Shown here: positions 5,652 to 38,749 of the stretch, in pieces
How positions within the stretch are numbered: the first letter of the stretch is position 1
Layout: every line of letters begins with the position of its first letter
Origin: Candidatus Nealsonbacteria bacterium
GTDB lineage: Bacteria > Patescibacteriota > Minisyncoccia > Minisyncoccales > DAOVPY01
NCBI GenBank assembly: GCA_030628945.1
Contig: DAOVPY010000001.1
Span: 51,302 to 115,301, forward strand
Length of the DNA: 64,000 nucleotides
Direction of reading: 5' to 3'
Made by a program: the position numbers and the translations under genes
Notes under the pieces: model-generated
The model's input: the letters and a program-made list of their open reading frames with translations, nothing else
Told to the model about the DNA's origin: nothing
Databases searched by the model: none

Positions 5652-5683
5652 AAATGGCAGAGAACAGGTCTCTGCCATTTTTC
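5652..5683. terminator. Bidirectional rho-independent terminator (A-tract / GGCAGAGAACAGGTCTCTGCC hairpin / T-tract)
   Basis: Perfect 8-bp stem GGCAGAGA/TCTCTGCC with a 5-nt loop, flanked by AAAAT and ATTTTTC. It lies between the convergent GH3-like gene and tRNA-Leu. Confidence 0.7.
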
Positions 5684-5687
5684 ATTG

Positions 5688-5771
5688 TGCCGCGGGTGGG
5701 ACTCGAACCCACACGAGGTTGCCCTCACACGGTTTTGAACCGTGCGCGTAAGCCAATTCCGCCACCGCGGC
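5688..5771 (-). tRNA. tRNA-Leu (anticodon CAA), type II with long variable arm
   Basis: Reverse complement reads GCCGCGGTGGCGGAATTGGCTTACGCGCACGGTTCAAAACCGTGTGAGGGCAACCTCGTGTGGGTTCGAGTCCCACCCGCGGCA. Acceptor stem is GCCGCGG/CCGCGGC. Anticodon stem CACGG/CCGTG has loop TTCAAAA (CAA). T-arm GGTTCGAGTCC. No encoded CCA. Confidence 0.85.
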
Positions 5772-5836
5772 GTGATTTAACTTTACCAAAAATTTCGCTA
5801 TTTGTAAATTCAAAAAATTTGTGTTATGGTAATTTA

Positions 5837-6631
5837 ATGGCTCGGATTATCAGTATTTTAAATCAAAAAGGCGGAACTGGGAAATCAACTACCAGTGTTA
5901 ATCTTCCAGTTTTCTTGGCGGCTATGGGCAAAAGGGTTTTATTGGTTGATTTTGATTCTCAAGCCAACGCCACTTTTTCTCTTGGCATTGACCCGAAAAA
6001 ATTGCCGCTTTCTGTTTACCATGCTTTAATGGGCCAGGTTACTCCTTCAGCCATTATCAGGAAAACCTCATTTTTTGGCTATGAAATTATGCCGGCGTCT
6101 CCGGATTTGGCCGGCGCCACCGTGGAATTAGTGAGCCTAAAAGACCGGGAATTCAAACTTGACCAAACCCTGGAAAAGGTCAAGGATTCTTACGATTTTA
6201 TTATTATTGATTCGCCTCCCAGTTTGGGTCTTCTCACCTTGAACGCTTTGGTCGCCTCAAAAGAAATTTTAATTCCTGTTCAGTGCGAATATCTGGCTCT
6301 GGAAGGATTGGAGCAGCTTTTAGCAACAATTGATCTGGTTAAAAATAATTTAAATAAAGAAGTTAAAATTACAGGAGCCCTTTTGACTATGTATAATAGA
6401 GGAAATCGGCTTTCCAGAGATGTGGCAAAAGAAGTGAGGAGAAATTTTCCCGGCTATGTTTTTGACGCAGTAATTCCCAGAGCAATAGTTTTAGCCGAGG
6501 CGCCCAAGTTTGGCAAACCGATTTTGCAATACGCTCCTGCTTCGCTGGCAACAAAAGCGTATCGGGAGCTGGCAGAAGAAATCATTAACCTTGAAACCTA
6601 TAACTTGAAACCTATAACTCAAGAAGAATAA
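5837..6631 (+). CDS. parA: Chromosome partitioning ATPase ParA/Soj
   Basis: Deviant Walker A KGGTGKSTT and DSPPSLG motif. The ORF-track N-terminal extension (5654-5836) overlaps the tRNA-Leu and terminator and is spurious; the start is set at the MARIISILNQKGG ATG. Confidence 0.9.
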   Translation: MARIISILNQKGGTGKSTTSVNLPVFLAAMGKRVLLVDFDSQANATFSLGIDPKKLPLSVYHALMGQVTPSAIIRKTSFFGYEIMPASPDLAGATVELVSLKDREFKLDQTLEKVKDSYDFIIIDSPPSLGLLTLNALVASKEILIPVQCEYLALEGLEQLLATIDLVKNNLNKEVKITGALLTMYNRGNRLSRDVAKEVRRNFPGYVFDAVIPRAIVLAEAPKFGKPILQYAPASLATKAYRELAEEIINLETYNLKPITQEE

Positions 6632-24484: not shown

Positions 24485-24528
24485 AATCCATTACAAAATC
24501 GGACGATCGTCCGATTTTGTAATGGATT
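24485..24528. repeat. 44-bp perfect palindrome AATCCATTACAAAATCGGACGATCGTCCGATTTTGTAATGGATT (family copy 2)
   Basis: Direct read. Same outer arms as 21633 and 25248; the centre differs but stays palindromic (compensatory changes). Confidence 0.85.
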
Positions 24529-25247: not shown

Positions 25248-25291
25248 CATCCATTACAAACTAATCCGATCGGATTAGTTTGTAATGGATG
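25248..25291. repeat. 44-bp perfect palindrome CATCCATTACAAACTAATCCGATCGGATTAGTTTGTAATGGATG (family copy 3)
   Basis: Direct read. Confidence 0.85.
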
Positions 25292-25387: not shown

Positions 25388-25416
25388 GTTGACATATTTT
25401 TTGGGGTTTGTAAGAT
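25388..25416 (+). promoter_or_regulatory. Putative promoter (TTGACA-16-TAAGAT) giving a near-leaderless transcript; duplicated at 26175-26205
   Basis: TTGACAtattttttggggtttgTAAGATagaaaagtATG; the identical block precedes the paralog at 26210. Confidence 0.4.
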
Positions 25417-25424
25417 AGAAAAGT

Positions 25425-26102
25425 ATGACAAAGAAAAAAATTGGAGTTATTTTAGTAGTTGTTGGTTTTATCTTCATTATTGGAGGATTTTTTTGGTGGC
25501 AGCAAGATAAGATAGAAAGATTTTTGGAAAGTAAAAAAATAGAAAAAATGGTTGCGCCGTCTAAAGATTATAATGTAATAGAGAATTCCGGCGAAAAATT
25601 TCTTATTAATAAAAAGGATGAATTTAAAATAAAAATTCCTATAGGATGGGAGATTGAATTAGGAGACGATATGGAAATATTAAAATCAGACAGAGAGGTA
25701 ACCTTGTATTCAGAAGATTTCAGTTATCGTCCACCACAAGGATGTTTAATAAGAATACAAATTAATCGACTTCAAAAAACATGGATAGAAGAATACGGTG
25801 TAGATTTTGTAATGTATCCTTTTGAGGGAGCAGAAGAAATTAAAGAAATGATAAATTCTTATAAAGAAATTGCGTCGAAAGAAAAAGAGATAATACAAGA
25901 AAGAGGCGCCGAAATAATTTTAGTAGGTCAAAAGGAAGCCTTATGGGAACAGGAAGCTATTGGGTTAGGAGAAGTTATCGGAAAATATATTACTATTAAA
26001 GTTCCAACTGAAAATAAAGTGTATATTTTTAGAAATACGCAATTTTCTGAACGGTGCGATGAAGAATTGGAGAATTTTTTAGAAACAATTTCAATTGAAT
26101 AA
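25425..26102 (+). CDS. Hypothetical N-terminally membrane-anchored protein (paralog A)
   Basis: MTKKKIGVILVVVGFIFIIGGFFWW anchor; paralogous to 26210..26797, with shared N-terminus and C-terminal ...CxEEF(D/E)xFLxxISxE. Confidence 0.4.
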   Translation: MTKKKIGVILVVVGFIFIIGGFFWWQQDKIERFLESKKIEKMVAPSKDYNVIENSGEKFLINKKDEFKIKIPIGWEIELGDDMEILKSDREVTLYSEDFSYRPPQGCLIRIQINRLQKTWIEEYGVDFVMYPFEGAEEIKEMINSYKEIASKEKEIIQERGAEIILVGQKEALWEQEAIGLGEVIGKYITIKVPTENKVYIFRNTQFSERCDEELENFLETISIE

Positions 26103-26209
26103 TTAGCACTAGTCGGCATCAAACACAGACAGACGCAGAGTTTCCCTCAAGATTATTTTTCCTTAAAGGAATTTGACATATTTTTTTTGGATTTGTAAGA
26201 TAGAAAAGT

Positions 26210-26797
26210 ATGACAAAGAAAAAAATTATTATTTTAACAATTGTTATTTTAGCTGTCGCTGTCGGCGGAGTTTTTTATTGGTACTTGAACAGGGAAATTA
26301 AAGGAAGTCCGGATGATTATACTATTGAAGAAACCGAAACCGGAAAAATTGTCAAAAATGAGAGAGCCGGGTTGACAGTGAGAATACCCGAGGGCTGGAT
26401 AGAAGAAAAAATGGATATTATGGAAGGCTCAATGGTCTTTTATAGCTCAGATGCAGAAGGTTATAGACCAGAGAAAATAAAACCACCATTGAAACAAGGT
26501 TGTATAATTGAAGTAGCGATAGCTTACAAAAAAACCAACTTTAAGGAGATAAAAAAAGAGATAGAAGAAGCGCATAAATCATTAGGGATGAAATCTGATG
26601 AGTTTGAGATAATAGAGGTGGATGGAAAACCTGCTTTGAAAAATATTTTTAATTCTGTAGATTTGGGGTATTCTGTTGAAATATATATTCCCAATAGAGA
26701 TTTATTATGTGGATTAAGGATTTCTGCCGGACCTGAATATATAAAACAATGTTCTCAAGAATTTGATAAATTTTTGAAAAATATATCAGTTGAGTGA
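26210..26797 (+). CDS. Hypothetical N-terminally membrane-anchored protein (paralog B)
   Basis: MTKKKIIILTIVILAVAVGGVFYWY anchor; the 5' leader is identical to paralog A. Confidence 0.4.
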   Translation: MTKKKIIILTIVILAVAVGGVFYWYLNREIKGSPDDYTIEETETGKIVKNERAGLTVRIPEGWIEEKMDIMEGSMVFYSSDAEGYRPEKIKPPLKQGCIIEVAIAYKKTNFKEIKKEIEEAHKSLGMKSDEFEIIEVDGKPALKNIFNSVDLGYSVEIYIPNRDLLCGLRISAGPEYIKQCSQEFDKFLKNISVE

Positions 26798-26825
26798 TTA
26801 AATAAAGGAGGGAGTTTTTCTTTTT

Positions 26826-29114
26826 ATGAATAAAGTAGTGGATATCCCATTTTTTTATATTTTTCTGCTAACAATGTTTTTGGCAGGTTTTTTAATGTCT
26901 TGTCAAATCTGTAAAGCTGAAGTTGAACTTGAACAAAAAGAAGCTGATAGGTTGCTTCATTCAATTCAACAGGGGCTAATAGATGAGTGGATAGACCTTA
27001 CTGCTTCGCTTAATTTTTCTGAGCCGGAAAAACAGGCAGATTTATTTTTAATCAGGAACGCTATCCAGCAAAAAGAATTAAATTACACTTTTAAGGAACT
27101 GCCCAAAGAATATTTAAAAAAACTGGTTAAAATAGGGATTTTGTTGGTTTTAGCGCCTGACGGAAGACTTATCTTAGAGGAATTGGAAAAAGAAAGTGTT
27201 AAAGAAGCAAAAAAAATTGCGCAAGATTGGCTTTTACAAAAGGAAATAAAAACCAGCAGCGGCAAATTAAAATATAATTTTACTTCTTACAAAAATAATA
27301 ACCAAGAAGCGCTTTTTTATTATAATTTGGCATATCATCCATTAGATAATGAATATGGAAAATTGATAATTGAATTTTATTCGCCAGAGGAAATTGAACC
27401 TAAAAAATCTACAGGAAATGTTTTATGGTTAAACGCTGCTTGTTGGGAGTTCAATGAATGGAAAAAACAGGGCAATGAGAAATTAAAGCCCTTTATAATG
27501 CGGGTTAAAGGCGAAATCAGTAAAACCCAATCTCGCTATAAATGGGAGAGAAATTTAGGTATTGAGATTATTTATAATGAATCAATGCCAAAATTTCCCA
27601 AAGAAGAAAAACCAGTCGGGTTTTTAGGAAAAATCAAAATAAGCGTTAAGAAAGAATTATTGAAAATCGTTCAAGAATATAAAGATATTTTTGACATTTT
27701 TACTCAAATTAAAGAAAAATTGCCCAAAATTAATCTTTTTAGCGCTGGATTGGTGGAGCAAAGTTTGGTAGAGGAGGCGACAGAAAAAGTTGGCAGAGAG
27801 CAGGTCTCTGCCGATTCAGCGGAGGTAGAGCCGGAACCGGAAATAGATTTAGAGGAAGTTGGCAGAGAACAGGTCTCTGCCGATTCAGAGGAGGTTGATG
27901 TGGTTCAATCAGATGAATCAAATGAATCGGTTGAATCGAACATATCAGAGGAATCAGTCCAATTAGAGGAATTGGTCCAATCAGAGGAAGCGGATTTGTC
28001 AGACGAATTGGGCGAATCAGACGAATCACACGAATCAGAGCCGGAGCCGGAGCCGCAAGCGCAACCAGAGCCGGAGCCGGAGCCAGCGCCCGCAGCAGAA
28101 TCAGAACCAGAATTATGCAAAGGTGTTTTTGCCAATCCAAAAATGTTCAGGGTTCTTATCAACGAGGTAGCATGGATGGGCAGTAAAAATTCCAGCAATG
28201 ATGAATATATTGAACTTAAAAATATCTGGGGAATTCCAGTTCATTTAGACGGCTGGCAATTATTGGACAAGAACCAGCAGATAAAAATAATTTTCAACAA
28301 AGACGATGTTATTCCCGCAAACGAATTTTATCTTTTGGAGCGGACAGACGATGACACAGTACCGGGTATTGAGGCAAATAAAATTTATACCGGAGCCCTT
28401 AATAATACTGATGAGGCGCTTTATCTTTTAGACAATAATTGTCAATTGGAAGATATGGTAACAGCTAATCCCGAGTGGCCTGCTGGCGATAATTCCACAA
28501 AGAAAACAATGGAGAGATTTGATGTTTTTTATTGGTACACTTTTCAAGGTTCCAGTCAGAATGGGATTTGGGGAACTCCGGGTAGGGAAAATAGTCCGGC
28601 GCCTCCTATTTATACTCGCAGCGCCGCGCCAGTTCTGTTGGCGCAGGAATCTGCGTTGCCTAAAATTTTGATTACCGAAGTCCAGGTTGAAGGCCAAACC
28701 TCAAAAGATGAGTTTATTGAACTTTACAATCCAAACAATGAAAGTGTTGATTTAACAAATTGGTATGTCCAGAGAAAAACAAAAAACGGCAAAATTAATT
28801 CTTACGCTCCAAATACCCTATTTTCCGGAAAAACAATTAAAGCAAAAAATTATTTTCTGATTGCTAACGCTTCTTCCACTTTTGCGACATCTGCGGATAT
28901 TGCCACTACTTATTCTCTAACTAAAAACAATACCCTGATTTTGAAAAATTCAGATAGAGAAATTGTTGACAAAGTTGGCTGGGGTCAAGCCCAGGATTTT
29001 GAAACCGCTGCCACAACCAATCCTTGCGCCGGAGAAAGCATTGGCAGAAAATGGGCCACAACAACGCAGGAATATCAGGACACAGACAATAATTCTCTTG
29101 ATTTTGAAATTTAG
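26826..29114 (+). CDS. Secreted surface protein with acidic low-complexity region and two lamin-tail (LTD) domains; N-terminal part of a longer reading frame ended by an in-frame TAG
   Basis: Signal/TM at the N-terminus. Acidic EPEPEP/SDES repeats. LTD signatures (VLINEVAWMGS...EYIELKNIWGIPVHLDGWQLLD; ILITEVQVEGQTSKDEFIELYNPNNESVDLTNWYV). It ends NNSLDFEI-TAG. Confidence 0.6.
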   Translation: MNKVVDIPFFYIFLLTMFLAGFLMSCQICKAEVELEQKEADRLLHSIQQGLIDEWIDLTASLNFSEPEKQADLFLIRNAIQQKELNYTFKELPKEYLKKLVKIGILLVLAPDGRLILEELEKESVKEAKKIAQDWLLQKEIKTSSGKLKYNFTSYKNNNQEALFYYNLAYHPLDNEYGKLIIEFYSPEEIEPKKSTGNVLWLNAACWEFNEWKKQGNEKLKPFIMRVKGEISKTQSRYKWERNLGIEIIYNESMPKFPKEEKPVGFLGKIKISVKKELLKIVQEYKDIFDIFTQIKEKLPKINLFSAGLVEQSLVEEATEKVGREQVSADSAEVEPEPEIDLEEVGREQVSADSEEVDVVQSDESNESVESNISEESVQLEELVQSEEADLSDELGESDESHESEPEPEPQAQPEPEPEPAPAAESEPELCKGVFANPKMFRVLINEVAWMGSKNSSNDEYIELKNIWGIPVHLDGWQLLDKNQQIKIIFNKDDVIPANEFYLLERTDDDTVPGIEANKIYTGALNNTDEALYLLDNNCQLEDMVTANPEWPAGDNSTKKTMERFDVFYWYTFQGSSQNGIWGTPGRENSPAPPIYTRSAAPVLLAQESALPKILITEVQVEGQTSKDEFIELYNPNNESVDLTNWYVQRKTKNGKINSYAPNTLFSGKTIKAKNYFLIANASSTFATSADIATTYSLTKNNTLILKNSDREIVDKVGWGQAQDFETAATTNPCAGESIGRKWATTTQEYQDTDNNSLDFEI
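27789..27900. repeat. 69-nt in-frame tandem coding repeat (~1.6 copies), each containing the hairpin GGCAGAGA(A/G)CAGGTCTCTGCC
   Basis: VGREQVSADSAEVEPEPEIDLEE / VGREQVSADSEEVD. The hairpins at 27792-27812 and 27861-27881 are identical to the terminator stem at 5656-5676. Confidence 0.8.
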
Positions 29115-31982
29115 TTTCCGACACCGGGCGCGCAAAATCAATCAGACGACCCGGACGACCCGGACGACCCGGAACCAGAACCTTTAGCGCAAATTCTCAT
29201 TACCGAGGTTCAAATTTGGGGTGATGAAAATAATTATGATTTTGTTGAATTTTACAATCCTGCTGCTGTCAGTGTGGATATTTCTGATTTCCAGTTGAAA
29301 AAGAGGAATAAGAAAGGCACAGAAGAATCAGTTGCTAAAGAACCTTTTCAGGGGGTTTCAATTTCCGCGCAATCCTATTTTCTCTGGGTAAATTCTGAAT
29401 ACGCGCAGGCGAGTTCTACCCAAATTTCAGCAGACGCCACTACTACTCAAACATTAGCCCGAAATAATAGCATCGCGCTTTTAGATAAAGATAAAAATGT
29501 CATTGACGCTGTTGCATGGGGCGATAGCGTTGAGCCATTTTGCGAAAATTCTCCTTTTTCCCAAAATCCGAACAAAAATCAAACTCTGGGCAGGAAATGG
29601 TCTGCGTCAGATGAAAATTATATTGACACAAATAATAATTCCCTTGATTTTGAAATTCAGTTTTCAACGCCAGGAACCAAAAATCAAAATTTTCTTGTGT
29701 GGCTTAACGAGCTTGCTTCCCAAGAAAGTTATTTATCAAATCAAATCAATTTCACGCTCCATTGGCAATCTTTGGACTTGAATTTTAGCAGTTATTTAGT
29801 GGAATATAAAAGCCAGGGAGGGGAGGATTGGCAGGAATTTTATCAGGGAGATTCATTAGAAAAAGAATTTATATCCCAAAAGGACTATGTTAATTATTAT
29901 TTCAAAGTAAAAGTCCTAAACCAAAATAATAATAATATTTTACAGCAAAAAGAAATAGAAATTTCAGTAGCCAGTTTGCCGGTTTCTTTGAACGAAATAA
30001 TGTACGCTCCGCAGGATTCGGAAAAAGATGATTATTGCGAATATATTGAACTTTACAATAATACTTCAAAACCTATCGATTTAAGGGGTTGGATTTTGAG
30101 TGTGTGGGGCAGTCCTGTGGCGCGATTTCCTCAACAAGAGGAATTAGAACTTGCGGAGGATATTCAGAATAATGGCAGTTCCTTAATTATAAAAGCTGGC
30201 GGTTTTGCTCTTATTAGCGGCGATGTTTCCAGCGACAAAAGTATTTATTCGGGATTTTGCGAATATGAAATCCCGGAATATTCTGAAAATGTGATTCGTT
30301 TAAAAACAAAAGGCGCCAGCTTAAAATTGCCCAATACCGGGCAGGGCCATATTTGGTTAAAAAATCCTCAGGAGCAAATTATTGATGATGTTTTATACAA
30401 CGCCTGCAATCTTCCTGCTCAGGGCTGTTGGGGAGCCGTGGGAAACGGAAAATCCCTTCAAAAATCACGTCCAACTCATTCTTCAGTTATAAACGACAAT
30501 TGGGAGGAAGCGCTGCCCGGTCCCGGGATACAAAATCAAAATTACGATCCTGATTCTTTCAATATTTTACCGAACTGGCAGCCAAGCGAAGATTATAATA
30601 TTTTCTCTCAAAAAGCAGGGCATTATTTATTTAAAGGAAATTTTCAGGTACCGGAAGGAAAGACATTAATTATTGAGCCAGGAGTTGAAGTTTATTTCGG
30701 TTCGCGCGGCGGCCATTCATATAATGAGACCGGCTGGTTAACGATTAAAGGAACATTAAAAGCAATCGGCAATTCACAAAACAGAATTATTTTTGCCGGC
30801 CAATCCAGCAGCACCTGGCCCGGAATTTTCTTTGAAGAAACCAGTACCGGCTCTGAATTAAATTGGGTTGAGGTTTCTCATGCCGGATGGCAGACCATCG
30901 GCACCCCGCAAACTTACAATTTTATTAACGGCCAGGCAGTCTATATTAAGGATACCGATGTTATGCTCAAAAATCTTGTTTTAAAGAGAAATCGCCACAC
31001 CGGCATTATCTTGAATAATTCAAATTCCCATTTGGAAAATATTGAGGTCTCAATGTCCGATGGGGAATGCTCCTTAACAAATTCCGCGGCCGTCTATATT
31101 TCCGGTGGTTCGCCTTTAATAAAAAATTCAATTTTCAAGGGACATCCTTTTGCTATATATATGTATAGCGCGGATTGTCCCCAAATTGAACAAAATACTT
31201 TTCAGGAAAATAAAATTCCGGTTTTTATCAACAGCTCTTATCCGATTTTTTCGCAGAACCGAATAATCAACAATCTAATCAGCGGAGTATTTATAACCGG
31301 TTCCTTAGACACCACTACCTGGCAGGCGCCGGGCGAAAATTTTCCTTATGTTGTTGACGGAGCGTTAGAAATTAAACAGGGCGCTACCTTATTTATAAAA
31401 TCGGGCGTTGTGATTAAATTTAATAATAATTCCAAATTAAATGTAAAGGGCGCGCTCTTAACCCAGGGAGACGGAGAACCGATTGTTTTTACTTCAATTC
31501 GCGATGATGATTATGCGGGAGACACCAATCAGGACGCTACATCAACTATTCCTTCACAGGGTCAGTGGGACGGTATTGTTTTCACTTCGTCTTTTGGTTC
31601 AGTCCTGGAAAATGTTATTGTAAGATACGGGGGAAAAGCAAACACAGAGTTTAGCTTTAGCAGAGGCGCTTTAACTTTGGAAAACAGCAAAGTTCAAATT
31701 AAAAATGCTTCTATTACAGATAATTTGTTAGCCGGCGTTCAAATCCACAACTCTACTTCTACTTTTGAAAATGTTGTTTTTAGAAATCATAATAAGAATT
31801 GGAGTAATAAGTGGTATCCTTCGGTTGGATTATATATAATAGAGTCCGCGGATTTGAGTTTTTTCAACACTTTGTTCGAAAACAATACTCATGATATCTA
31901 TTGGCCCGATGGTGGAGATGAATGTCAGGCATTGGCAAGCAGTACGGATTGGGGCGTTGAATGCTCACGGGTTCTTTGGTAG
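29115..31982 (+). CDS. Continuation of the LTD surface protein: two more LTD domains plus a C-terminal right-handed parallel beta-helix region
   Basis: Same reading frame as 26826..29114 with no stop between 29115 and the track ATG at 29274. LTD signatures ILITEVQIWGDENNYDFVEFYNPAAVSVDISDFQL and LNEIMYAPQDSEKDDYCEYIELYNNTSKPIDLRGWIL. Beta-helix-like repeats (NSxxxNNxI.G). Confidence 0.55.
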   Translation, partial: FPTPGAQNQSDDPDDPDDPEPEPLAQILITEVQIWGDENNYDFVEFYNPAAVSVDISDFQLKKRNKKGTEESVAKEPFQGVSISAQSYFLWVNSEYAQASSTQISADATTTQTLARNNSIALLDKDKNVIDAVAWGDSVEPFCENSPFSQNPNKNQTLGRKWSASDENYIDTNNNSLDFEIQFSTPGTKNQNFLVWLNELASQESYLSNQINFTLHWQSLDLNFSSYLVEYKSQGGEDWQEFYQGDSLEKEFISQKDYVNYYFKVKVLNQNNNNILQQKEIEISVASLPVSLNEIMYAPQDSEKDDYCEYIELYNNTSKPIDLRGWILSVWGSPVARFPQQEELELAEDIQNNGSSLIIKAGGFALISGDVSSDKSIYSGFCEYEIPEYSENVIRLKTKGASLKLPNTGQGHIWLKNPQEQIIDDVLYNACNLPAQGCWGAVGNGKSLQKSRPTHSSVINDNWEEALPGPGIQNQNYDPDSFNILPNWQPSEDYNIFSQKAGHYLFKGNFQVPEGKTLIIEPGVEVYFGSRGGHSYNETGWLTIKGTLKAIGNSQNRIIFAGQSSSTWPGIFFEETSTGSELNWVEVSHAGWQTIGTPQTYNFINGQAVYIKDTDVMLKNLVLKRNRHTGIILNNSNSHLENIEVSMSDGECSLTNSAAVYISGGSPLIKNSIFKGHPFAIYMYSADCPQIEQNTFQENKIPVFINSSYPIFSQNRIINNLISGVFITGSLDTTTWQAPGENFPYVVDGALEIKQGATLFIKSGVVIKFNNNSKLNVKGALLTQGDGEPIVFTSIRDDDYAGDTNQDATSTIPSQGQWDGIVFTSSFGSVLENVIVRYGGKANTEFSFSRGALTLENSKVQIKNASITDNLLAGVQIHNSTSTFENVVFRNHNKNWSNKWYPSVGLYIIESADLSFFNTLFENNTHDIYWPDGGDECQALASSTDWGVECSRVLW

Positions 31983-32007: not shown

Positions 32008-32035
32008 AATAGTTGGACATCGTATGTCCAACTAT
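32008..32035. repeat. 28-bp perfect palindrome AATAGTTGGACAT-CG-TATGTCCAACTATT
   Basis: Direct read, between the LTD protein gene and the 32070 gene. Confidence 0.8.
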
Positions 32036-32069
32036 TGCGTTGTATTCTCTAACAGTGTAGAATTTAAAA

Positions 32070-32633
32070 ATGTATAAAGAATATTGTCTCAAACTTACAT
32101 TGGCGATTTATCGGGTAACAGCGCGTTTTCCAAAAGACGAACCCCTGAAAAATAAAATAAGAGAAAAAGCCAACGAGGTTTTGGTCGGTTTGATTTTGGC
32201 TAATCCTTGTCCTTCTCCTTTAATAAAAAAGAAATTATTGAAAGACACTGAAATTCTTGACAATTATTTTCAGATAGCGCAAAACCAAAATTGGGTTGAT
32301 TCCCGCAATTTTTTGTTTTTAGAAAAAGAATATGATAGAATAAAAAACAGGGTTGAGGAAGCTGATCAGACCCCGCAAAGCTCGCTTTCGCTCGCCGCGG
32401 GGCGAATGGATAAGACCGACAGGGTTAATAGAGCTTACGCGCTATTGCCCCGGCATAAAAGAATTTTAGAGATTTTAAGAGAGAAAGGCAAAGCCCAGGT
32501 TCATGATTTTCAAAAAATTTTTCCAGAAATAACCAAAAGAACCTTGCGGCGAGATTTTGAATTTTTATTACACCAAAACATAATTAAAAGAAATGGAGAA
32601 AAGAATAATACATTTTATAAATTAGCAATTTAG
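32070..32633 (+). CDS. Hypothetical protein: N-terminal four-helix-bundle domain (23S rRNA IVS-protein-like, TIGR02436-like) fused to a C-terminal DeoR-like HTH
   Basis: EYCLKLTLAIYRVTARFPKDEPLKNKIREKANEVLVGLI resembles the four-helix-bundle family. RHKRILEILREKGKAQVHDFQKIFPEITKRTLRRDFEFLLHQNIIKR resembles the DeoR HTH. Confidence 0.35.
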   Translation: MYKEYCLKLTLAIYRVTARFPKDEPLKNKIREKANEVLVGLILANPCPSPLIKKKLLKDTEILDNYFQIAQNQNWVDSRNFLFLEKEYDRIKNRVEEADQTPQSSLSLAAGRMDKTDRVNRAYALLPRHKRILEILREKGKAQVHDFQKIFPEITKRTLRRDFEFLLHQNIIKRNGEKNNTFYKLAI

Positions 32634-32635
32634 AA

Positions 32636-32694
32636 AGGTAGGACATAGATAGGACATTGATAAAAATAGTTTATGTCCTATCTATGTCCTACCT
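32636..32694. repeat. Long perfect palindrome (22-bp arms AGGTAGGACATAGATAGGACAT / ATGTCCTATCTATGTCCTACCT, 15-nt AT loop)
   Basis: Direct read; possible terminator or operator. Confidence 0.8.
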
Positions 32695-32752: not shown

Positions 32753-32770
32753 TGATTGGAGTGTAATATT

Positions 32771-33274
32771 ATGTCACACCCTAAAAGGATTTTTGAAGAC
32801 ATCTATAACCAATATATTGAGAAGATTTTCCGTTTTATCTTTTTTAGAGTTAATTCTCAAGAAAAAGCCGAAGACATCAGCTCAGAGGTGTTTTCGCGTT
32901 ATTGGCAGCAGCTTAAAAAAGGACTAAAAATTGAAAATCCCTCTGCCTTTTTATACAAGGTTGCCCGCAACCTGGTCACTGATTATTACCGGGAAAAGGG
33001 CAGGGCGCAAATGGTTTCCTTGGATAATTGTCCTCCTGAAGAAATAAACGACCCTAATTCTAATATAGTCCAGCAAGCGGTCTTGAGGTCTGATTTCAAC
33101 ACTATTTTAAGCGCGATGACAAATTTAAAACAGGATTATCAGGAAATAATTATTTGGCGCTATTTAGACGAATTATCCATCCCGGAAATAGCTAAAATGC
33201 TTAATAAATCAGAGGGCGCGATAAGAGTAATGCTTTGTCGGGCGCTAAAAGTCCTAAAAAATCAACTTAAATAA
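32771..33274 (+). CDS. ECF-type RNA polymerase sigma factor (sigma-70 family, regions 2 and 4)
   Basis: Region 2 (YIEKIFRFIFFRVNSQEKAEDISSEVF) and region 4 HTH (LDELSIPEIAKMLNKSEGAIRVMLCRALKVL). The ORF-track TTG start at 32756 is replaced by the ATG at 32771 (GGAG 10 nt upstream). Confidence 0.8.
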   Translation: MSHPKRIFEDIYNQYIEKIFRFIFFRVNSQEKAEDISSEVFSRYWQQLKKGLKIENPSAFLYKVARNLVTDYYREKGRAQMVSLDNCPPEEINDPNSNIVQQAVLRSDFNTILSAMTNLKQDYQEIIIWRYLDELSIPEIAKMLNKSEGAIRVMLCRALKVLKNQLK

Positions 33275-33328: not shown

Positions 33329-34090
33329 ATGACTGATCAGGAACTTATTCAAAAAATTAAAGAATTGAAGCAAATTAAACCCAGCCAGGACTGGGTCGTT
33401 TCGTGTAAAAACCGAATTTTAAGCGAAGAACAAGAGAACAGAGAATTTGAACAAAGCCCGGCTTTGACCAATTTTGGGTTTTTGCGGTTTGTTTCTGATT
33501 TTGTCAGGGATTATAAATTAACCCTTAAACCGGTGTTAGTTACTGCTGTTTGTTTTGGAATTATAGTGGGGCTTTTCGGTTTTACCCAAAACACCGTGCC
33601 AGGCGATTTTTTCTATTCCGTAAAGAAAGTAAAGGAAATCACTCAGGTCGCTTTTTCTCCTGACGGGCAGAAGTCAATAGTTTATCTTCAATTTGCCAAT
33701 AAGCGGTTAGAGGACTTAAAAAAGATTGCGGAAAGCAATGATGTAAGGAATTTGGCTCCCTGTCTTGAGGACTTTCAGGCGAATATCTCTGAAGCGGCAA
33801 AGGATTTAGTAAAAATAGATGTGAACGTTACCAGTTCAGACCCGAGCATAATCAAAGGTATTGTTAAGCAGACCCAGGAATTAGAAAAGAAAAAAGCGGA
33901 AGTTAAGACATTTGGCATTGTGCTGGGCGAGAACAAAGAATGGGAAAACGCTGTCGCTGATTTTGTGGAAACGCAAATTAATGGATTGGAAGGCATGGTT
34001 GAGAAAGAGCAGTTGGAAGAAATCAAGCAACTTGAGCAGGAAGGAAATTTCACCGCAGCCCTGGAAAAGATTTTATTTTTGAGTTATTAA
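33329..34090 (+). CDS. Putative anti-sigma factor / DUF5667-like membrane protein
   Basis: Immediately downstream of the ECF sigma gene. Cytoplasmic N-terminus, single TM (VLVTAVCFGIIVGLFGF), extracytoplasmic helical domain. Confidence 0.35.
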   Translation: MTDQELIQKIKELKQIKPSQDWVVSCKNRILSEEQENREFEQSPALTNFGFLRFVSDFVRDYKLTLKPVLVTAVCFGIIVGLFGFTQNTVPGDFFYSVKKVKEITQVAFSPDGQKSIVYLQFANKRLEDLKKIAESNDVRNLAPCLEDFQANISEAAKDLVKIDVNVTSSDPSIIKGIVKQTQELEKKKAEVKTFGIVLGENKEWENAVADFVETQINGLEGMVEKEQLEEIKQLEQEGNFTAALEKILFLSY

Positions 34091-34233: not shown

Positions 34234-34306
34234 CTCTGTTAAATACCCGGCCCTTCTGCGAAAGGCCGGGTGTCCCGCTAAAAGCGGGGCGTTTAACAGG
34301 GTGAAC
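34234..34306. repeat. Small palindromic element with (C)TCTGTTAAAT / GTTTAACAGGGTGAAC termini and two internal GC hairpins (family copy 3)
   Basis: tCTGTTAAATa-cccggcccttctgcgaaaggccggg-tgt-cccgctaaaagcgggg-cGTTTAACAGGGTGAAC, immediately upstream of the giant surface protein gene. Confidence 0.7.
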
Positions 34307-37300
34307 GAAAAAATAAAAATGTCTAATTTAGTAAAAAAGATTGTAGCGACTGCCACGGCTCTTACTTGCGCCGTAATGATGCTGGCTCCAGTAGGGGTTC
34401 AGGCTCTTACCGCGGAAGAACTTCAGGAACAGATTACTCTTCTGATGGCTCAATTAACCGAGCTGCAGGACCAATTAGCTGTTTTAGAAGGTGAAGAACC
34501 GGAAGTAGCAGAAGTTACTATTGAAGGCGTTCCCGCTGATTTTACTTTTGAGACCAATCTTTCTCAGGGAATGAGCGGAGATGAATGTAAATACCTTCAA
34601 ATCGTGTTGAATTCCGACGTTGACACCCAATTGGGTGAAACCGGCGTTGGTTCTGCTGGATATGAAACAACCTATTTTGGTCCTTTGACCAAAGGAGCGG
34701 TTGTTCTTTTTCAGGAGAAATACACTGAAGATGTTTTGGCTTACTGGAATTTGACTTCCGGCACAGGTTATGTCGGTTCAACAACCAGAGCCAAACTAAA
34801 CGAACTTTTAGCAGCTGTAGTAATTCCGGTAATTCCTGTAACTCCTGCTGGCTGTGAATGTACGGTTTGGGTAGATGATGTTTGTGGAGGCGGAGATTGT
34901 TCAGCTGATGAAATGCAGCAAACCCGAACTTGTACTCCTGAAGAAGGAGCTGAAGAGGATGTTTGCGAAGGTACTGTTGTAAGTCAATGCGTAGCGGATT
35001 CATCCTGCGTAGTTGCTGAAGATATTACTATTAGTTTAGCCGCTGACACGCCTGGCACGAGCCAAGTGGCAAAAAACGCGCAAGATGTGATTTTCACCAA
35101 AGTGAAATTCACCGGCGGCACAAGCGGAGTAACTGTAAGCAAAGTAATAGTGGCGCGGGGCGGTGTTTCAGCAGACGCTGATGTTGCTTCCATTAAATTA
35201 TACGATGGAGCGACTAGACTTGGTTCAACTCAGGCGCTGAATACCCTTACCCACAAAGCAACATTTTCCAGTTTGTCCTGGGAAATCCCGGCTGGAGAGA
35301 CCAAATACTTAACTATTAAAGGAAGTATTGCCACTTCTCCGACAGTCGGTGATTCCGTGAGATTAGGAATTGCTTTGGCTACCGATGTTACGGCTGACCA
35401 GGTTCTTACCGGCGTTTACCCAATTTGGGGAAAATCAAAGACCATTGCCGGTATTTCCGTAGGCGGGCTTGATGTAACCAAACAGACCTCGCCGGCAGAG
35501 GCAACGATTTTATCCGGCGCTGTTGACCAGGATATTGCCGCGTGGAAGTTTTACGCCAGCACTACCGAAGGTTTTTCTATTTCTCAAATTATTGTTACCC
35601 ATGTGGGTTCCGCGACTGTCAATGACGTCAAGAACATCAAATTAAAGGTTTCCGGAGTTCAAATTGGAGAAACAATAGAAACGTTAGACAGCCAGAATAA
35701 AGCTGTGTTTGACTTATCATCTCCTTTGGTTCTTAACGCGGCAACGAGCAAGATTGTCCACGCTCATTGCGATGTCGCTGGAGGAATTTGGACATCCAGA
35801 ACAATTAAATTTGAAATTACCCAATACACTGATGTTACGGCTTACGGAGCCAATTCCGGCGGCGCGACTGTTATTACCACCGACCCATTTGCTACTTACA
35901 CCAAACAGACAGGTAATCTGATGACTATTGGACAGGGCAGTTTGACTGTGGCGGTTGACGCGGCTCTGAATCCAGCGGCGCAGACATATGTGAAAGGAAC
36001 CACTGAAAGGGATTTTGTAGCTTACAAGTTCACTACCGGCTCAAGAGAAGGAGTGAGAGTGACTAAACTGCGGTTCAAATTAGAGTCTGCTGACGGAGCC
36101 ATTACCGGTTCTGCGACTGATATTTCCAATATCACTCTTTGGGACGGCACTACTCAGGTTGGCGGCACTGCCAGCGTAATTGGTTCTTACGTTACTTTTG
36201 GAGCCAACACAGTTGGCTATGACGTTTCCGGCTTATTTGATGTAGAGAAATCCACGAACAAGACCATTGTGTTAAAAGCGGATATTCCTTCAGGAGCCAC
36301 TTCGGACCATACATTGGCTTTGGAACTTGACACATATACTGATATTTGGATTGACGGTTTATCCTCGGAATACGATATTGACCAAACTGCCACTAACATC
36401 GTTCTTACAGGCACTGGCAAGAGACATACTGTTTCCGGCAGCGGCAGTTTAGCGGTTTCTTTATCGGCCAACACGCCTCCTGCTCAGACATATGTGATTG
36501 GTTCTACCGAGAAAGAATTTACCAGGATTAATCTTACCGCCGGTTCTGGCGAAGACATTCTGGTTACCGCAATCACCTTGGATATTTTGTCAAATACTAA
36601 TATTGCCAGTACAGGCGCTCATCTTATTAACGTAAAATTGGTGAACGCGGCTGATGGAGTTCAATTTGGTTCTACTGTGCCCAATCCAAGCGCTACCGCC
36701 GACTTTACCGGCAATATCACTGTTCCGGCTTCAGGCACAGTAAGCTTAAAAGCCATTGCGAATGTTCCGACAACAAATTATCCTGTTCCTAATTCTTCAA
36801 TTGAGATAGCGTCTGGAGCTACCGGCGGCACAGTGATAGCCGACGCCATAGAGTCAACAGGCGTTTATTCTTCGGCAACTATTACCGAGACCGGTTCTGC
36901 AGACGGCAAGAATATTACTATTAGCGCTGGTGGTTTGACTGTCGCGGCTGCGGCAAGTCCGGCTGACCAGACCCTGATTAAGGGAGCCAGCGAGGTTCCT
37001 TTTGTCGGGTTGGTAATGACCGCTGACACTGCGGAAGATGTGAGAGTTACTTATATTAAGTTGACTGTTAACACCGAGGGCGCTGCTGGATTGGCTTCTA
37101 CCACTGATATTTCCAATATCGGACTTTACGACGGCGACACTCGCTTGACTGTTAAAAAGAATTTAACTGTTTCTGCCGAAACAACCTATCCAGGGTCAGT
37201 CCATCACACTGTTGCTTATACTGCTTCTGATTTCCTGAATTCTCAGGGTATTACCGTTACCAAGGGCCAGCAAAAAACCATTACGGTAAAAGCTGACCTG

Positions 37301-38749
37301 CCGAGCACTGCCGGAACCGACCACATAGTTGTGTTAGGCGTTAGTTCCACTGATCACTTTGTATGCAGCGGGCTTTCTTCCAACACAGAGATTTCCGAGA
37401 CCTTAACAAAGAGTCCGGATAGCACTCATAGCACAGGCGTTAACATTGACAGCGATACCGTGCCTACTGACGCTTATGTTCATGCAGTTACAATCAAAGC
37501 GGCAGGGAGTTTGAGCATGGTAAATAATCCCAACAAGCCGGTTACCGCTATTCACGCTGTTGGCAGCGAAGGAAGCACCCTGGCGGATATTGCTTTCCAC
37601 AAGGTTGACTTTACCGCGGCCATGGAAGACATCTATGTTAAGAGTATTAGCGTGGAGAGAAGCGGCGGGTCAGACGCTGACTTTGGAGCGATTTCTATTT
37701 GGGACGGTTCCACCCAGTTGGGTTCAGACCAGACCTTTGTTGGCGCTACCACGACCTTTAGTTTCCCTGAAAGTTCTTACTGGACCCTGTCTAAGGGCGT
37801 GAAAAAGACCTTAACTATTAAAGCAGACCTTAAGGGCGTGAAGACCAGCATTGGTTATGGTTCAGATTCAGGAGACGCTCCTTTGATTCGCTTGGACAGA
37901 GTGACTGTTCAAGGAGTAAGTTCAGGCAGCGTTACTCCCAATGGCTATGACACCTATGATTTGGAAGGTAATGTCCAGTATCTCAGGCAGTCCAAACCAA
38001 CATTGGCAGCGGCAAGTTTGCCAAGCACTGTTTTAACAGCAGGCGGCGGCAAAGTCCTTTACAGATGGACTGTAACTGCTGATTCAAAAGGCGATATTGG
38101 CTGGAAAATGGTTGGTTTCAACATTACTGGTATGCTGGGAAGCAAGTCAATCAAGGCATCAACCACGGCTCCATACACTAATGGAACTACTGACGGCGTC
38201 TACATTGACGAGACAAGCGCGATGACCAAGATGATTAACAACTTTAAGGTTTGGAATTTGACTGACAATGTGCATGTAACCGCTACCGCAACTGATTATG
38301 ACGGCACCAGCGTTTCCAGCACCTGCGGCGCTATTCTTAGAGCCGACGCTGACGCTGGCACTGGCTACAATATCATCTTTGTTGCTGGTACCGAGCAAGT
38401 TATTGCCTCCGGGGCTACCCGAAGCTATGAATTGAGAGCTGATATTTTGACTAACAAAGCATTAGCGGTAGGCGATACTATCTCTACTAAGATTGACAAC
38501 CTGACTACTGCTACTGCTTACGCCACAACAAGCGATTATCTCAGTGTTTCCAGAAATCCGGTTAGCTTTGTTTCAGAATATGAGATATGGATGGACAATT
38601 ACGCTACAAGCAGTATTTCCTTTATCTGGACTGACAGGTCGTCCACTGATACCAATGGCGTGATTAATCACACCCGCAACACCAGCGACTGGACTAATGA
38701 TTTGAAAGTTAGTGGTTTGCCAGCAAGCGTTCTTAGCATGACTAAGTAA
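34301..38749 (+). CDS. Giant (1,482 aa) Thr/Ser/Gly/Ala/Val-rich cell-surface repeat protein (S-layer/adhesin-like) with N-terminal signal peptide, coiled coil and peptidoglycan-binding-like domain
   Basis: Signal peptide (VATATALTCAVMMLAPVGVQA). Coiled coil (LQEQITLLMAQLTELQDQLAVLE). PG_binding_1-like segment (YLQIVLNS...GYFGPLTKGAVVLFQEKY). Many ~100-aa beta-rich repeats (ITLWDGTTQ..., IKLYDGATRL..., ISIWDGSTQL...). Confidence 0.6.
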   Translation: MNEKIKMSNLVKKIVATATALTCAVMMLAPVGVQALTAEELQEQITLLMAQLTELQDQLAVLEGEEPEVAEVTIEGVPADFTFETNLSQGMSGDECKYLQIVLNSDVDTQLGETGVGSAGYETTYFGPLTKGAVVLFQEKYTEDVLAYWNLTSGTGYVGSTTRAKLNELLAAVVIPVIPVTPAGCECTVWVDDVCGGGDCSADEMQQTRTCTPEEGAEEDVCEGTVVSQCVADSSCVVAEDITISLAADTPGTSQVAKNAQDVIFTKVKFTGGTSGVTVSKVIVARGGVSADADVASIKLYDGATRLGSTQALNTLTHKATFSSLSWEIPAGETKYLTIKGSIATSPTVGDSVRLGIALATDVTADQVLTGVYPIWGKSKTIAGISVGGLDVTKQTSPAEATILSGAVDQDIAAWKFYASTTEGFSISQIIVTHVGSATVNDVKNIKLKVSGVQIGETIETLDSQNKAVFDLSSPLVLNAATSKIVHAHCDVAGGIWTSRTIKFEITQYTDVTAYGANSGGATVITTDPFATYTKQTGNLMTIGQGSLTVAVDAALNPAAQTYVKGTTERDFVAYKFTTGSREGVRVTKLRFKLESADGAITGSATDISNITLWDGTTQVGGTASVIGSYVTFGANTVGYDVSGLFDVEKSTNKTIVLKADIPSGATSDHTLALELDTYTDIWIDGLSSEYDIDQTATNIVLTGTGKRHTVSGSGSLAVSLSANTPPAQTYVIGSTEKEFTRINLTAGSGEDILVTAITLDILSNTNIASTGAHLINVKLVNAADGVQFGSTVPNPSATADFTGNITVPASGTVSLKAIANVPTTNYPVPNSSIEIASGATGGTVIADAIESTGVYSSATITETGSADGKNITISAGGLTVAAAASPADQTLIKGASEVPFVGLVMTADTAEDVRVTYIKLTVNTEGAAGLASTTDISNIGLYDGDTRLTVKKNLTVSAETTYPGSVHHTVAYTASDFLNSQGITVTKGQQKTITVKADLPSTAGTDHIVVLGVSSTDHFVCSGLSSNTEISETLTKSPDSTHSTGVNIDSDTVPTDAYVHAVTIKAAGSLSMVNNPNKPVTAIHAVGSEGSTLADIAFHKVDFTAAMEDIYVKSISVERSGGSDADFGAISIWDGSTQLGSDQTFVGATTTFSFPESSYWTLSKGVKKTLTIKADLKGVKTSIGYGSDSGDAPLIRLDRVTVQGVSSGSVTPNGYDTYDLEGNVQYLRQSKPTLAAASLPSTVLTAGGGKVLYRWTVTADSKGDIGWKMVGFNITGMLGSKSIKASTTAPYTNGTTDGVYIDETSAMTKMINNFKVWNLTDNVHVTATATDYDGTSVSSTCGAILRADADAGTGYNIIFVAGTEQVIASGATRSYELRADILTNKALAVGDTISTKIDNLTTATAYATTSDYLSVSRNPVSFVSEYEIWMDNYATSSISFIWTDRSSTDTNGVINHTRNTSDWTNDLKVSGLPASVLSMTK

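What the first reader, a model, noticed from the sequence alone, without database searches (positions are those of the whole stretch)
26826..31982. A single in-frame TAG at 29112-29114 splits a ~1,718-aa four-LTD / beta-helix surface protein, and the paralogous repeat has CAG at the same position
The ORFs 26826-29114 and 29274-31982 are in the same frame, and no other stop occurs in that frame between 29115 and 29273. The first ORF ends NNSLDFEI-TAG-FPTPG. The second contains NNSLDFEI-CAG(Q)-FSTPG at 29630-29670, so the stop sits where a duplicated LTD module has Gln (a single C to T change). Translation downstream of the TAG continues straight into another canonical LTD domain (ILITEVQIWGDENNYDFVEFYNPAAV...). 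Possible explanations: a very recent nonsense mutation (pseudogene or split gene), an assembly or sequencing error, a population polymorphism, or programmed stop-codon readthrough or phase switching of a giant adhesin-like protein.
Basis: seen in the sequence. Interest (0 to 1): 0.7.

Follow-up and report, generated by a model that had tools for sequence, protein, structure and literature searches.

The report
Recent nonsense mutation in surface-protein gene
A single C-to-T change has turned a conserved glutamine codon into a stop codon in the middle of a giant cell-surface protein gene of an uncultured deep-sediment bacterium; it is real, not an assembly error, but it looks like an ordinary young gene truncation rather than a special decoding mechanism.

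Summary
ORF 26826-29114 and the same-frame stretch 29115-31982 form one 1,718-codon reading frame, broken only by TAG at 29112-29114. The paralogous LTD module has CAG at 29658-29660. In related proteins the equivalent column is Gln in 75 of 88 modules, and 35 homologues carry the N-terminal domain and the C-terminal beta-helix in one chain. The ancestral state was therefore one gene with CAG.

The TAG appears in every available assembly of this strain: two adjacent layers of one South China Sea cold-seep core, assembled by separate pipelines, all 100% identical. Assembly error is very unlikely.

TAG is an ordinary terminator here (11 of 53 long ORFs). No suppressor tRNA lies in the window, no RNA structure follows the stop, no hypermutable tract sits at the site, and none of the 120 best homologues is split there. 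The downstream 955 codons are intact, which puts the lesion below about 2% neutral divergence.

Best reading: a young CAG>TAG nonsense mutation truncates a membrane-anchored LTD/beta-helix protein of a Nealsonbacteria-like Patescibacterium to 762 aa. Trace near-cognate readthrough and a minority CAG allele cannot be excluded without reads. Low interest.

The parts
26826..31982 (+). Ancestral single gene: 1,718 sense codons, one internal TAG, terminal TAG
   Evidence: 35 homologues have both halves in one chain
26804..26814 (+). Strong Shine-Dalgarno-like AAAGGAGGGAG ahead of the ATG at 26826; rare in this genome (7/55 genes have such a motif)
26844..26897 (+). N-terminal hydrophobic helix (aa 7-24): signal anchor or signal peptide. 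It is the only export signal of the whole frame.
   Evidence: Kyte-Doolittle 19-residue window maximum 2.05; AlphaFold helix 7-29
26826..27725 (+). Conserved N-terminal domain of about 300 aa: three long helices plus an antiparallel sheet, with no Pfam family and no PDB fold match
   Evidence: 88/120 homologues share it, up to 54% identity; model pLDDT 78.5; no Foldseek PDB hit with E<0.01
27768..28115 (+). Acidic, low-complexity Glu/Ser/Pro-rich linker built from in-frame tandem repeats
   Evidence: no homologue hits
28146..28595 (+). LTD module 1
   Evidence: Pfam LTD; 61-68% identical to homologue modules; motif coordinates
28662..29141 (+). LTD module 2; its C-terminal motif NNSLDFEI-[TAG]-FPTPG carries the stop
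   Evidence: Pfam LTD residues 608-720
29112..29114 (+). In-frame TAG replacing a conserved Gln codon (inferred CAG>TAG transition)
   Evidence: Gln in 75/88 aligned homologous modules; identical in all assemblies
29145..29173 (+). 9-nt x 3.2 in-frame tandem repeat (DDP linker). It preserves the frame, so it is not a phase switch.
29274..29276 (+). First in-frame start codon after the TAG (GTG). It lies 27 residues inside LTD3, with no SD motif and no hydrophobic N-terminus downstream.
29190..29687 (+). LTD module 3, an old paralogue of module 2 (40% aa identity), with the intact CAG at 29658-29660
29691..29975 (+). Unannotated middle segment of about 95 aa
   Evidence: no Pfam or homologue hit
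29982..30539 (+). LTD module 4 (divergent)
   Evidence: second LTD stretch in the downstream half; weak homologue hits
30543..31979 (+). C-terminal right-handed beta-helix region
   Evidence: Pfam Beta_helix E=7.4e-15; 33-36% identical to homologue C-termini
32008..32036 (+). 13-bp hairpin just after the terminal stop. The scan's only + strand terminator-like hits inside the frame lie at 26864-26887 and 28226-28239, well upstream of the TAG, and none lies between 29114 and 29274, so this hairpin marks the likely transcript end for the whole unit.

Best explanation
The locus is one gene for a large membrane-anchored surface protein of an uncultured Patescibacterium (Nealsonbacteria/Minisyncoccales-like). 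Its layout is N-terminal helix, a conserved 300-aa domain, an acidic linker, four lamin-tail domains and a C-terminal beta-helix. A recent C>T transition changed a conserved Gln codon (CAG) at the end of LTD2 into TAG. Inferred consequence: ribosomes terminate there as at any other TAG in this genome and release a 762-aa product (anchor, N-domain, LTD1, LTD2). The remaining 955 codons (LTD3, middle segment, LTD4, beta-helix) are still transcribed but go essentially untranslated. That downstream part cannot work alone, because its only in-frame starts lie inside LTD3 and it has no export signal. The mutation is the consensus allele in both sediment layers where the organism was assembled. It is young enough that no second lesion has accumulated. 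Shown: the stop, its reality across assemblies, the ancestral Gln, the single-chain ancestry, and normal TAG use. Inferred: termination at this site, loss of the distal domains, and recency.
For: One frame with one internal TAG. The same 762-aa product and 100% identical DNA occur in ENA assemblies of SAMN18200505 and SAMN18200506 and in Logan assemblies of SRR13892594 and SRR13892593, and the protein is also on record from NCBI. These samples are adjacent layers RS_17 and RS_18 of one Illumina-sequenced cold-seep core. Gln occupies the column in 75/88 homologous LTD modules, within the motif NNxxDFEIQxPTP, and the internal paralogue has CAG. 88/120 homologues share the N-domain and 35 have the N-domain plus beta-helix in one chain of 1,169-2,291 aa. 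None of the 120 ends or starts at an LTD boundary. TAG ends 11/53 long ORFs. It sits exactly at domain ends, for example a complete Peptidase_S26 followed by a complete HisRS, and PG_binding_1 2-57/57 followed by TAG-TAA. The gene's own terminal stop is TAG. Between the halves there is no terminator-like site and no + strand promoter-like site, and a hairpin follows 31982. A downstream product would have no hydrophobic N-terminus. 4.9% of substitutions in the downstream 2,865 nt would create a stop, so staying open implies d < about 0.02 at 95% if neutral. LTD3 is as similar to homologues (58-62%) as LTD1 and LTD2 (57-68%), so there is no sign of decay.
Against: No read-level data were available, so fixation versus a majority allele is unknown. 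An intact 955-codon downstream frame is also what continued selection through readthrough would give. Only 64 kb of the genome was searched for tRNAs (one tRNA-Leu), so a suppressor tRNA elsewhere is not excluded. There is no expression or proteomic evidence that the 762-aa product is made or that the distal part is absent. Belinky et al. 2021 (PMC7918605) argue that many bacterial in-frame stops, including a CAG/TAG example, persist under purifying selection.
Confidence: 0.8

Rival explanations
1. Leaky stop kept in use. Most ribosomes stop at UAG, but near-cognate tRNA-Gln (or another near-cognate tRNA) occasionally reads through. This would give a little full-length protein, and the TAG would act as a tolerated or even selected expression attenuator, as proposed for many bacterial in-frame stops.
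For: The downstream frame is fully intact and LTD3 is well conserved. Belinky et al. 2021 report widespread in-frame stops with dN/dS<1 and a CAG/TAG example with reversals. Insertion of Gln at UAG by a near-cognate tRNA (established knowledge, not tested here) would restore the ancestral residue.
Against: There is no stimulatory RNA structure 3' of the stop (z = -0.40). The stop is not shared with any homologue. TAG ends about 20% of genes without tandem-stop protection in most cases. Intactness is explained equally well by recency.
Confidence: 0.1
2. Within-population polymorphism. A CAG (intact) allele coexists with the TAG allele, and the assemblies report only the majority base.
For: This cannot be excluded without reads. 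The Logan contig from SRR13892593 ends at 29116, 2 nt past the TAG, which may reflect a graph branch or a coverage drop nearby.
Against: All five contigs that carry the strain have TAG. The exact full-length Gln allele is absent from a collection of about 15 billion proteins. A JGI metagenome scan with N at the first codon base found nothing. A contig ending at 29116 points to a branch at 29117, not at 29112.
Confidence: 0.2
3. Assembly or sequencing artefact: the true base is C.
For: A single-base difference from a sense codon; the sequence is a metagenome-assembled genome.
Against: Separate assembly pipelines (ENA/SPIRE-style and Logan, with the protein also on record from NCBI) on two separately sequenced samples give identical sequence. 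The context is not a homopolymer or a repeat. The data are Illumina with more than 90% of reads at Q30.
Confidence: 0.03
4. Functional split gene: the second half is translated on its own from GTG 29274 or TTG 29295 and works with the first half.
For: Gene callers annotate a 902-aa ORF. The genome mostly lacks SD motifs, so the absence of an SD is not decisive.
Against: Starting at 29274 removes the first 27 residues of LTD3, including the conserved ILITEV...EFYNP strands. There is no ATG, no hydrophobic N-terminus and hence no export signal for an extracellular-type domain set. There is no internal promoter-like site between the halves. No homologue is organised this way.
Confidence: 0.03
5. 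Programmed recoding of TAG, either genome-wide or site-specific (amber suppressor, pyrrolysine, or TAG-to-Gln as in some phages), or a phase-variation switch.
For: The stop sits exactly where Gln is conserved, and TAG-to-Gln codes exist in some phages (own knowledge, not tested).
Against: The window is a bacterial chromosome (ParAB, FtsAZ, HisRS, GroESL), and TAG ends genes exactly at domain ends. No suppressor tRNA or RNA element lies in the window. There is no 3' structure. No simple-sequence tract or invertible repeat lies at the site.
Confidence: 0.02

Closest known systems
[quoted passage not shown] 2021, PMC7918605)
   Same: A single CAG/TAG difference lies inside a gene whose homologues are uninterrupted, and the rest of the frame is intact. 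That paper's worked example is also a TAG/CAG site.
   Different: In that work, functional retention is inferred from stops shared by two or more species and from dN/dS<1. Here the stop is seen in one strain only, with zero sequence variation among contigs, so no such test is possible.
Multi-LTD (PF00932) / right-handed beta-helix (PF13229) giant surface proteins of Patescibacteria (CPR), annotated 'lamin tail domain-containing protein'
   Same: The architecture matches: N-terminal anchor, conserved N-domain, LTD modules, beta-helix. The N-domain is 50-54% identical and individual LTD modules are 57-68% identical to homologues.
   Different: The best overall homologue is only about 40% identical. 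The LTD2/LTD3-type module is present twice here but once in most homologues. This copy is interrupted. No member of the family has a tested function as far as I found (one search returned only incidental mentions).
LTD-containing extracellular nuclease ExeM (NCBIfam NF033680)
   Same: The LTD modules match the LTD portion of the ExeM model.
   Different: The score is 25-29 bits against a cut-off of 1300, and only profile positions 23-146 of 884 match. There is no nuclease domain, so it is not a member.
Genetic-code reassignments of stop codons (UGA-to-Gly in Gracilibacteria/Absconditabacteria; TAG-to-Gln in some phages) - own knowledge
   Same: A stop codon at a position where Gln is expected; the host phylum is CPR.
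   Different: All three stops are used normally here: TAA 27, TGA 15 and TAG 11 of 53 long ORFs, with domain-complete ends.

Membership tests
Lamin-tail-domain (PF00932) protein | Significant match to the LTD profile above the gathering score | tested here: met
   98.7 bits (first half, 2 stretches) and 91.1 bits (second half, 2 stretches) against a cut-off of 34.3
Right-handed beta-helix (PF13229) protein | Match to the Beta_helix profile above the gathering score | tested here: met
   55.4 bits against a cut-off of 25.9, 2 stretches, in the downstream half only
CPR N-domain/LTD/beta-helix surface-protein family (unnamed) | Shared 300-aa N-terminal domain followed by LTDs and a beta-helix in one polypeptide | tested here: met
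   The N-domain is shared with 88/120 homologues, and 35 have the N-domain plus beta-helix in one chain. In the window the frame is continuous apart from the TAG.
Young nonsense pseudogene / truncated gene | One premature stop at a position that is sense in homologues, reachable by one substitution | tested here: met
   TAG versus Gln in 75/88 homologous modules and CAG in the internal paralogue
Young nonsense pseudogene / truncated gene | The lesion is real in the organism's DNA, not an assembly error | tested here: met
   Identical in ENA, Logan and NCBI-derived records from two samples. Allele frequencies at read level were not available.
Young nonsense pseudogene / truncated gene | The downstream part is not translated | not testable with these tools
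   This needs proteomics or ribosome profiling. Indirectly, there is no usable start or export signal.
Functional in-frame stop maintained by readthrough (Belinky et al. class) | The stop is shared by orthologues of two or more species, and flanking sequence has dN/dS<1 | tested here: not met
   No homologue among the 120 best is split at an LTD boundary. All contigs of the strain are 100% identical, so dN/dS cannot be computed.
Programmed readthrough / recoding | The stop codon is reassigned or avoided genome-wide | tested here: not met
   TAG ends 11/53 long ORFs and coincides with domain ends
Programmed readthrough / recoding | Cognate suppressor tRNA (anticodon CUA) or pyl/sel machinery | tested here: inconclusive
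   None in the 64-kb window.
Programmed readthrough / recoding | Stimulatory RNA structure 3' of the stop | tested here: not met
   Folding 29100-29220 gives z = -0.40 against shuffles
Phase-variable surface protein | Simple-sequence tract or invertible element that switches the frame or the stop reversibly | tested here: not met
   Only in-frame 9-nt and 6/18-nt repeats are present, none at 29112. No flanking inverted repeats bracket the site.
Extracellular exonuclease ExeM (NF033680) | Full-length match above 1300 bits, including the nuclease domain | tested here: not met
   25-29 bits, LTD part only

The most novel reading that the evidence does not exclude
The TAG is not a dead end but a tolerated leaky stop. 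Near-cognate tRNA-Gln would occasionally insert the ancestral Gln, so the cell makes mostly a 762-aa short form plus a small amount of the 1,718-aa long form. The allele would persist in the population as an attenuator or isoform switch for a host- or particle-contacting surface protein of a CPR bacterium.
Probability: 0.08. Interest if true: 0.4.

Novelty: new member of a known kind. Interest (0 to 1): 0.12.

Why it matters
It matters mainly for annotation. The two called genes (762 and 902 aa) should be annotated as one disrupted gene, and the 902-aa 'protein' starting at GTG 29274 is almost certainly not a real product.

Biologically it is a small example of ongoing loss or truncation of a giant surface protein in an ultra-small, probably host-dependent bacterium from deep cold-seep sediment. 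If read data showed that the TAG and CAG alleles coexist, or change in frequency with sediment depth, it could serve as a marker of selection on surface architecture. It does not open a new mechanism.

Tried and rejected
1. Synteny route to orthologues. I used the neighbouring GroEL against GTDB species representatives with 10-kb flanks. The best matches were 80-81% identical (Nealsonbacteria/Minisyncoccales MAGs). tblastn of the LTD protein and seven neighbours against all 80 loci found nothing (the GroEL positive control worked). There is no conserved neighbourhood and no same-species genome.

2. JGI metagenome scan with a 38-nt pattern around the stop and N at the first codon base: 0 hits.

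4. The odd 44-aa 'representative' of the 762-aa protein's cluster is an unrelated fragment.

5. The apparent extra split of the downstream half in ENA scaffold_6 (627 + 296 aa) is a scaffolding artefact: 10 N plus 33 nt of junk at window ~31134. It is not a second lesion.

6. The other same-frame TAG junction, at 13859, is a true gene boundary between signal peptidase and HisRS.

7. The RNA fold downstream of the TAG is no better than shuffles.

8. SD-motif test for the internal GTG. It is uninformative because only 7/55 genes have an SD.

9. Function of the N-domain. There is no Pfam, NCBIfam or PDB sequence hit. The AlphaFold model is reasonable (pLDDT 78.5), but Foldseek against PDB gave nothing with E<0.01 and TM-scores mostly below 0.2 against the query.

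10. DGR or gene-conversion idea. The only repeat touching the site is the old LTD2/LTD3 paralogy (72% over 99 nt). The T/C difference is not the adenine-directed pattern of DGRs (own knowledge).
Full report
**Observation.** Translating window 26826-31982 in one frame gives 1,718 sense codons. They are broken by a single stop at codon 763 (TAG, 29112-29114) and end at a second TAG (31980-31982). The mechanical ORF list gives 26826-29114 (762 aa, ATG) and 29274-31982 (902 aa, GTG) in the same frame. The first ORF ends NNSLDFEI-TAG-FPTPG. The downstream paralogous module reads NNSLDFEI-CAG-FSTPG, with the CAG at 29658-29660. The repeat finder reports the two module ends as a 99-nt direct repeat, 72% identical and 546 nt apart. 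The modules as wholes are 40% identical at protein level, so the duplication is old and the local DNA identity reflects a conserved motif. Pfam finds two LTD (PF00932) stretches in each half and Beta_helix (PF13229) in the second.

**Is the TAG real?**
- The exact 762-aa, TAG-terminated product is on record on five contigs: ENA assemblies of SAMN18200505 (a 316-kb scaffold) and SAMN18200506, and Logan assemblies of SRR13892594 and SRR13892593. The protein is also recorded from NCBI.
- All fetched contigs are 100% identical to the window over 2.9-14 kb.
- Every contig carrying the upstream 195-aa gene is followed by the same 762-aa product.
[quoted passage not shown] Sequencing was on Illumina HiSeq X Ten (PMC9357000).
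- Two separately sequenced samples and separate assembly pipelines agree, and the context is neither a homopolymer nor a repeat. Assembly or sequencing error is therefore very unlikely.
- An apparent further split of the downstream half in the ENA scaffold is only a scaffolding gap (10 N plus junk) at window ~31134.

**Ancestral state.** I searched the read-through protein against about 5.8 billion proteins. It finds only distant relatives (40% identity or less overall), all long single chains of 961-2,291 aa (median about 1,460). Those that carry a source name are mostly lamin-tail-domain proteins of Patescibacteria.
- 88 of the 120 best share the 300-aa N-terminal domain encoded in the first ORF, at up to 54% identity.
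- 60 share the C-terminal beta-helix encoded in the second ORF.
- 35 have both in one polypeptide.
- None of the 120 ends or begins at an LTD boundary.
- I aligned 289 LTD modules from these homologues to a profile of modules 2 and 3. The column of the TAG is occupied in 88 modules, and 75 of those have Gln, within the motif NNxxDFEIQxPTP.

The gene was therefore ancestrally single with Gln at this site. CAG>TAG is a single C>T transition.

**Is TAG decoded specially here?** The window is ordinary bacterial chromosome, with ParA/ParB, FtsA/FtsZ, HisRS, GroES/GroEL and NrdD. GroEL places the organism near Candidatus Nealsonbacteria/Minisyncoccales, at 80-81% identity to the closest species representatives.
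- Stop use among long ORFs is TAA 27, TGA 15 and TAG 11.
- TAG falls exactly where domain models end. A complete Peptidase_S26 (2-168/168) is followed by a complete HisRS. PG_binding_1 (2-57/57) ends three residues before TAG-TAA.
- The gene's own terminal stop is TAG.
- The only tRNA or Rfam hit in the window is tRNA-Leu(CAA).
- The 120 nt after the stop fold no better than shuffled sequence (z = -0.40).
- The only tandem repeats in the gene are in-frame, and none touches 29112.
- No inverted repeats bracket the site.

Genome-wide recoding is contradicted and phase switching finds no substrate at the site. Programmed readthrough has no support. A suppressor tRNA elsewhere in the genome could not be checked.

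**Can the second half stand alone?** After the TAG, the only in-frame start codons within 200 codons are GTG 29274, TTG 29295 and GTG 29697; there is no ATG. Starting at 29274 removes the first 27 residues of LTD3, including the conserved ILITEV...EFYNP strands. The product would have no hydrophobic N-terminus (maximum KD19 of 0.26, against 2.05 for the true N-terminus). Between the halves there is no terminator-like site and no + strand promoter-like site, and a 13-bp hairpin follows the terminal stop at 32008-32036. This genome rarely uses SD motifs (7/55 genes), so the missing SD is not informative, although the true start does have a strong AAAGGAGGG. An independently functional, exported second half is therefore unlikely.

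**Age.** With a transition:transversion weight of 2, 4.9% of possible substitutions in the 2,865 downstream bases would create a new stop. If that stretch were neutral, the chance of no new stop falls to 50% at d = 0.005 and to 5% at d = 0.021, and indels would tighten this further. LTD3 is as similar to its best homologues (58-62%) as LTD1 and LTD2 are to theirs (57-68%). The lesion is young, or the tail is still under selection. With zero variation among contigs, these two cannot be separated.

**Mechanism (most likely, about 0.8).** A recent CAG>TAG nonsense mutation is the consensus allele in this sediment population. Inferred: termination at UAG releases a 762-aa membrane-anchored protein (helix 7-24, N-domain, acidic linker, LTD1, LTD2). 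The distal LTD3, middle segment, LTD4 and beta-helix go unmade apart from trace near-cognate readthrough. Whether the truncated form keeps a function, or is favoured (for example by shedding a distal binding module), is unknown.

**Rivals.**
- A coexisting CAG allele, about 0.2; compatible with the main reading.
- A leaky stop kept in use, as proposed by Belinky et al. 2021 for many bacterial in-frame stops, including a TAG/CAG example, about 0.1.
- A functional split gene, about 0.03.
- An artefact, about 0.03.
- Recoding or phase variation, about 0.02.

**Comparison with the known.** The gene meets the domain criteria for LTD and beta-helix proteins. It belongs to a CPR-wide, functionally uncharacterised family defined by a shared N-domain. 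That N-domain has no Pfam, NCBIfam or PDB sequence match. A reasonable AlphaFold model (pLDDT 78.5) has no significant PDB fold match. The match to the ExeM nuclease model covers the LTD only (25-29 bits against 1300). The interruption belongs to the well-known class of nonsense-disrupted bacterial genes. It fails the criterion used to argue for functional in-frame stops, namely conservation of the stop across species.

**Verdict.** The feature is real and correctly observed, but ordinary: a young nonsense mutation in a large surface-protein gene of an uncultured Patescibacterium. Interest is low (0.12). Its main value is to correct the annotation to one disrupted gene rather than two.

Noticed in passing
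window 24486-24527 and 25249-25290: Two 42-nt palindromic hairpins (perfect or nearly so) lie in successive intergenic regions, before the PaaX_M-like gene and before the 225-aa gene. They share the outer arms ATCCATTACAAA...TTTGTAATGGAT, but their inner parts differ and are each self-complementary, so the stem is kept by compensatory changes. They could be terminators, operators or a small repeated element.
   Followed up: partly
window 25397-25442 vs 26182-26227 (genes 25425-26102 and 26210-26797): Two tandem paralogous small membrane-anchored proteins lie just upstream of the LTD gene. They are only 27% identical as proteins. Their 46-nt 5' regions (the -10 element TAAGAT of a promoter-like site, the leader and the first six codons, MTKKKI) are 96% identical, and each is preceded by TTGACA. 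This suggests a conserved regulatory or leader module, or local gene conversion.
   Followed up: partly
window 32636-32657 / 32673-32694: A perfect 22-nt inverted repeat with a 15-nt spacer sits immediately after the DeoR-like HTH gene (stop at 32633) and before the ECF sigma-factor gene. Each arm contains tandem TAGGACAT units. It may be an operator or a terminator.
   Followed up: no
window 26826-27725: The 300-aa N-terminal domain of the LTD protein is conserved in 88/120 homologues, up to 54% identical. It has no Pfam, NCBIfam or PDB sequence match. Its AlphaFold model (pLDDT 78.5: TM helix, three long helices, antiparallel sheet) has no significant Foldseek match in PDB. It is an uncharacterised CPR-specific domain.
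   Followed up: partly
window ~31134 (L001 10310-10352); window 29116: ENA scaffold_6 has a 10-N gap plus 33 nt of unrelated sequence at window 31134, which creates a false 627 + 296 aa split. The Logan contig of SRR13892594 ends at 31133. The Logan contig of SRR13892593 ends at 29116, 2 nt after the TAG. These look like assembly-graph breaks of unknown cause: strain variation, a repeat or a coverage drop.
   Followed up: partly
window 34301-38749, with 32756-33274 and 33329-34090: A 1,482-aa ORF with no Pfam or NCBIfam match and a locally higher GC content (45-47% against about 37%) follows an ECF-type sigma factor and a DUF5667 protein. It may be a second large surface-protein unit under its own sigma factor.
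   Followed up: no
whole window (gene starts): Only 7 of 55 gene starts have a Shine-Dalgarno-like motif; most have A/T-rich leaders. The LTD gene is an exception, with a strong AAAGGAGGGAG at 26804-26814.
   Followed up: partly
window 5654-5771: tRNA-Leu(CAA) on the minus strand (5687-5771) overlaps the 5' end of the longest ParA-like ORF (5654-6631). The AAA_31 domain starts only at residue 64, so the real ParA start is probably downstream of the tRNA.
   Followed up: no
window ~43800-63900: A long same-strand run of ORFs follows. The six I scanned against Pfam are cell-envelope or polysaccharide genes: group-1 glycosyltransferase, polysaccharide deacetylase, PMT_2 mannosyltransferase (minus strand), Polysacc_synt flippase, GDP-mannose dehydratase/epimerase, and an EamA transporter just upstream on the minus strand. 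The run is at lower GC (31-35%) in parts.
   Followed up: no
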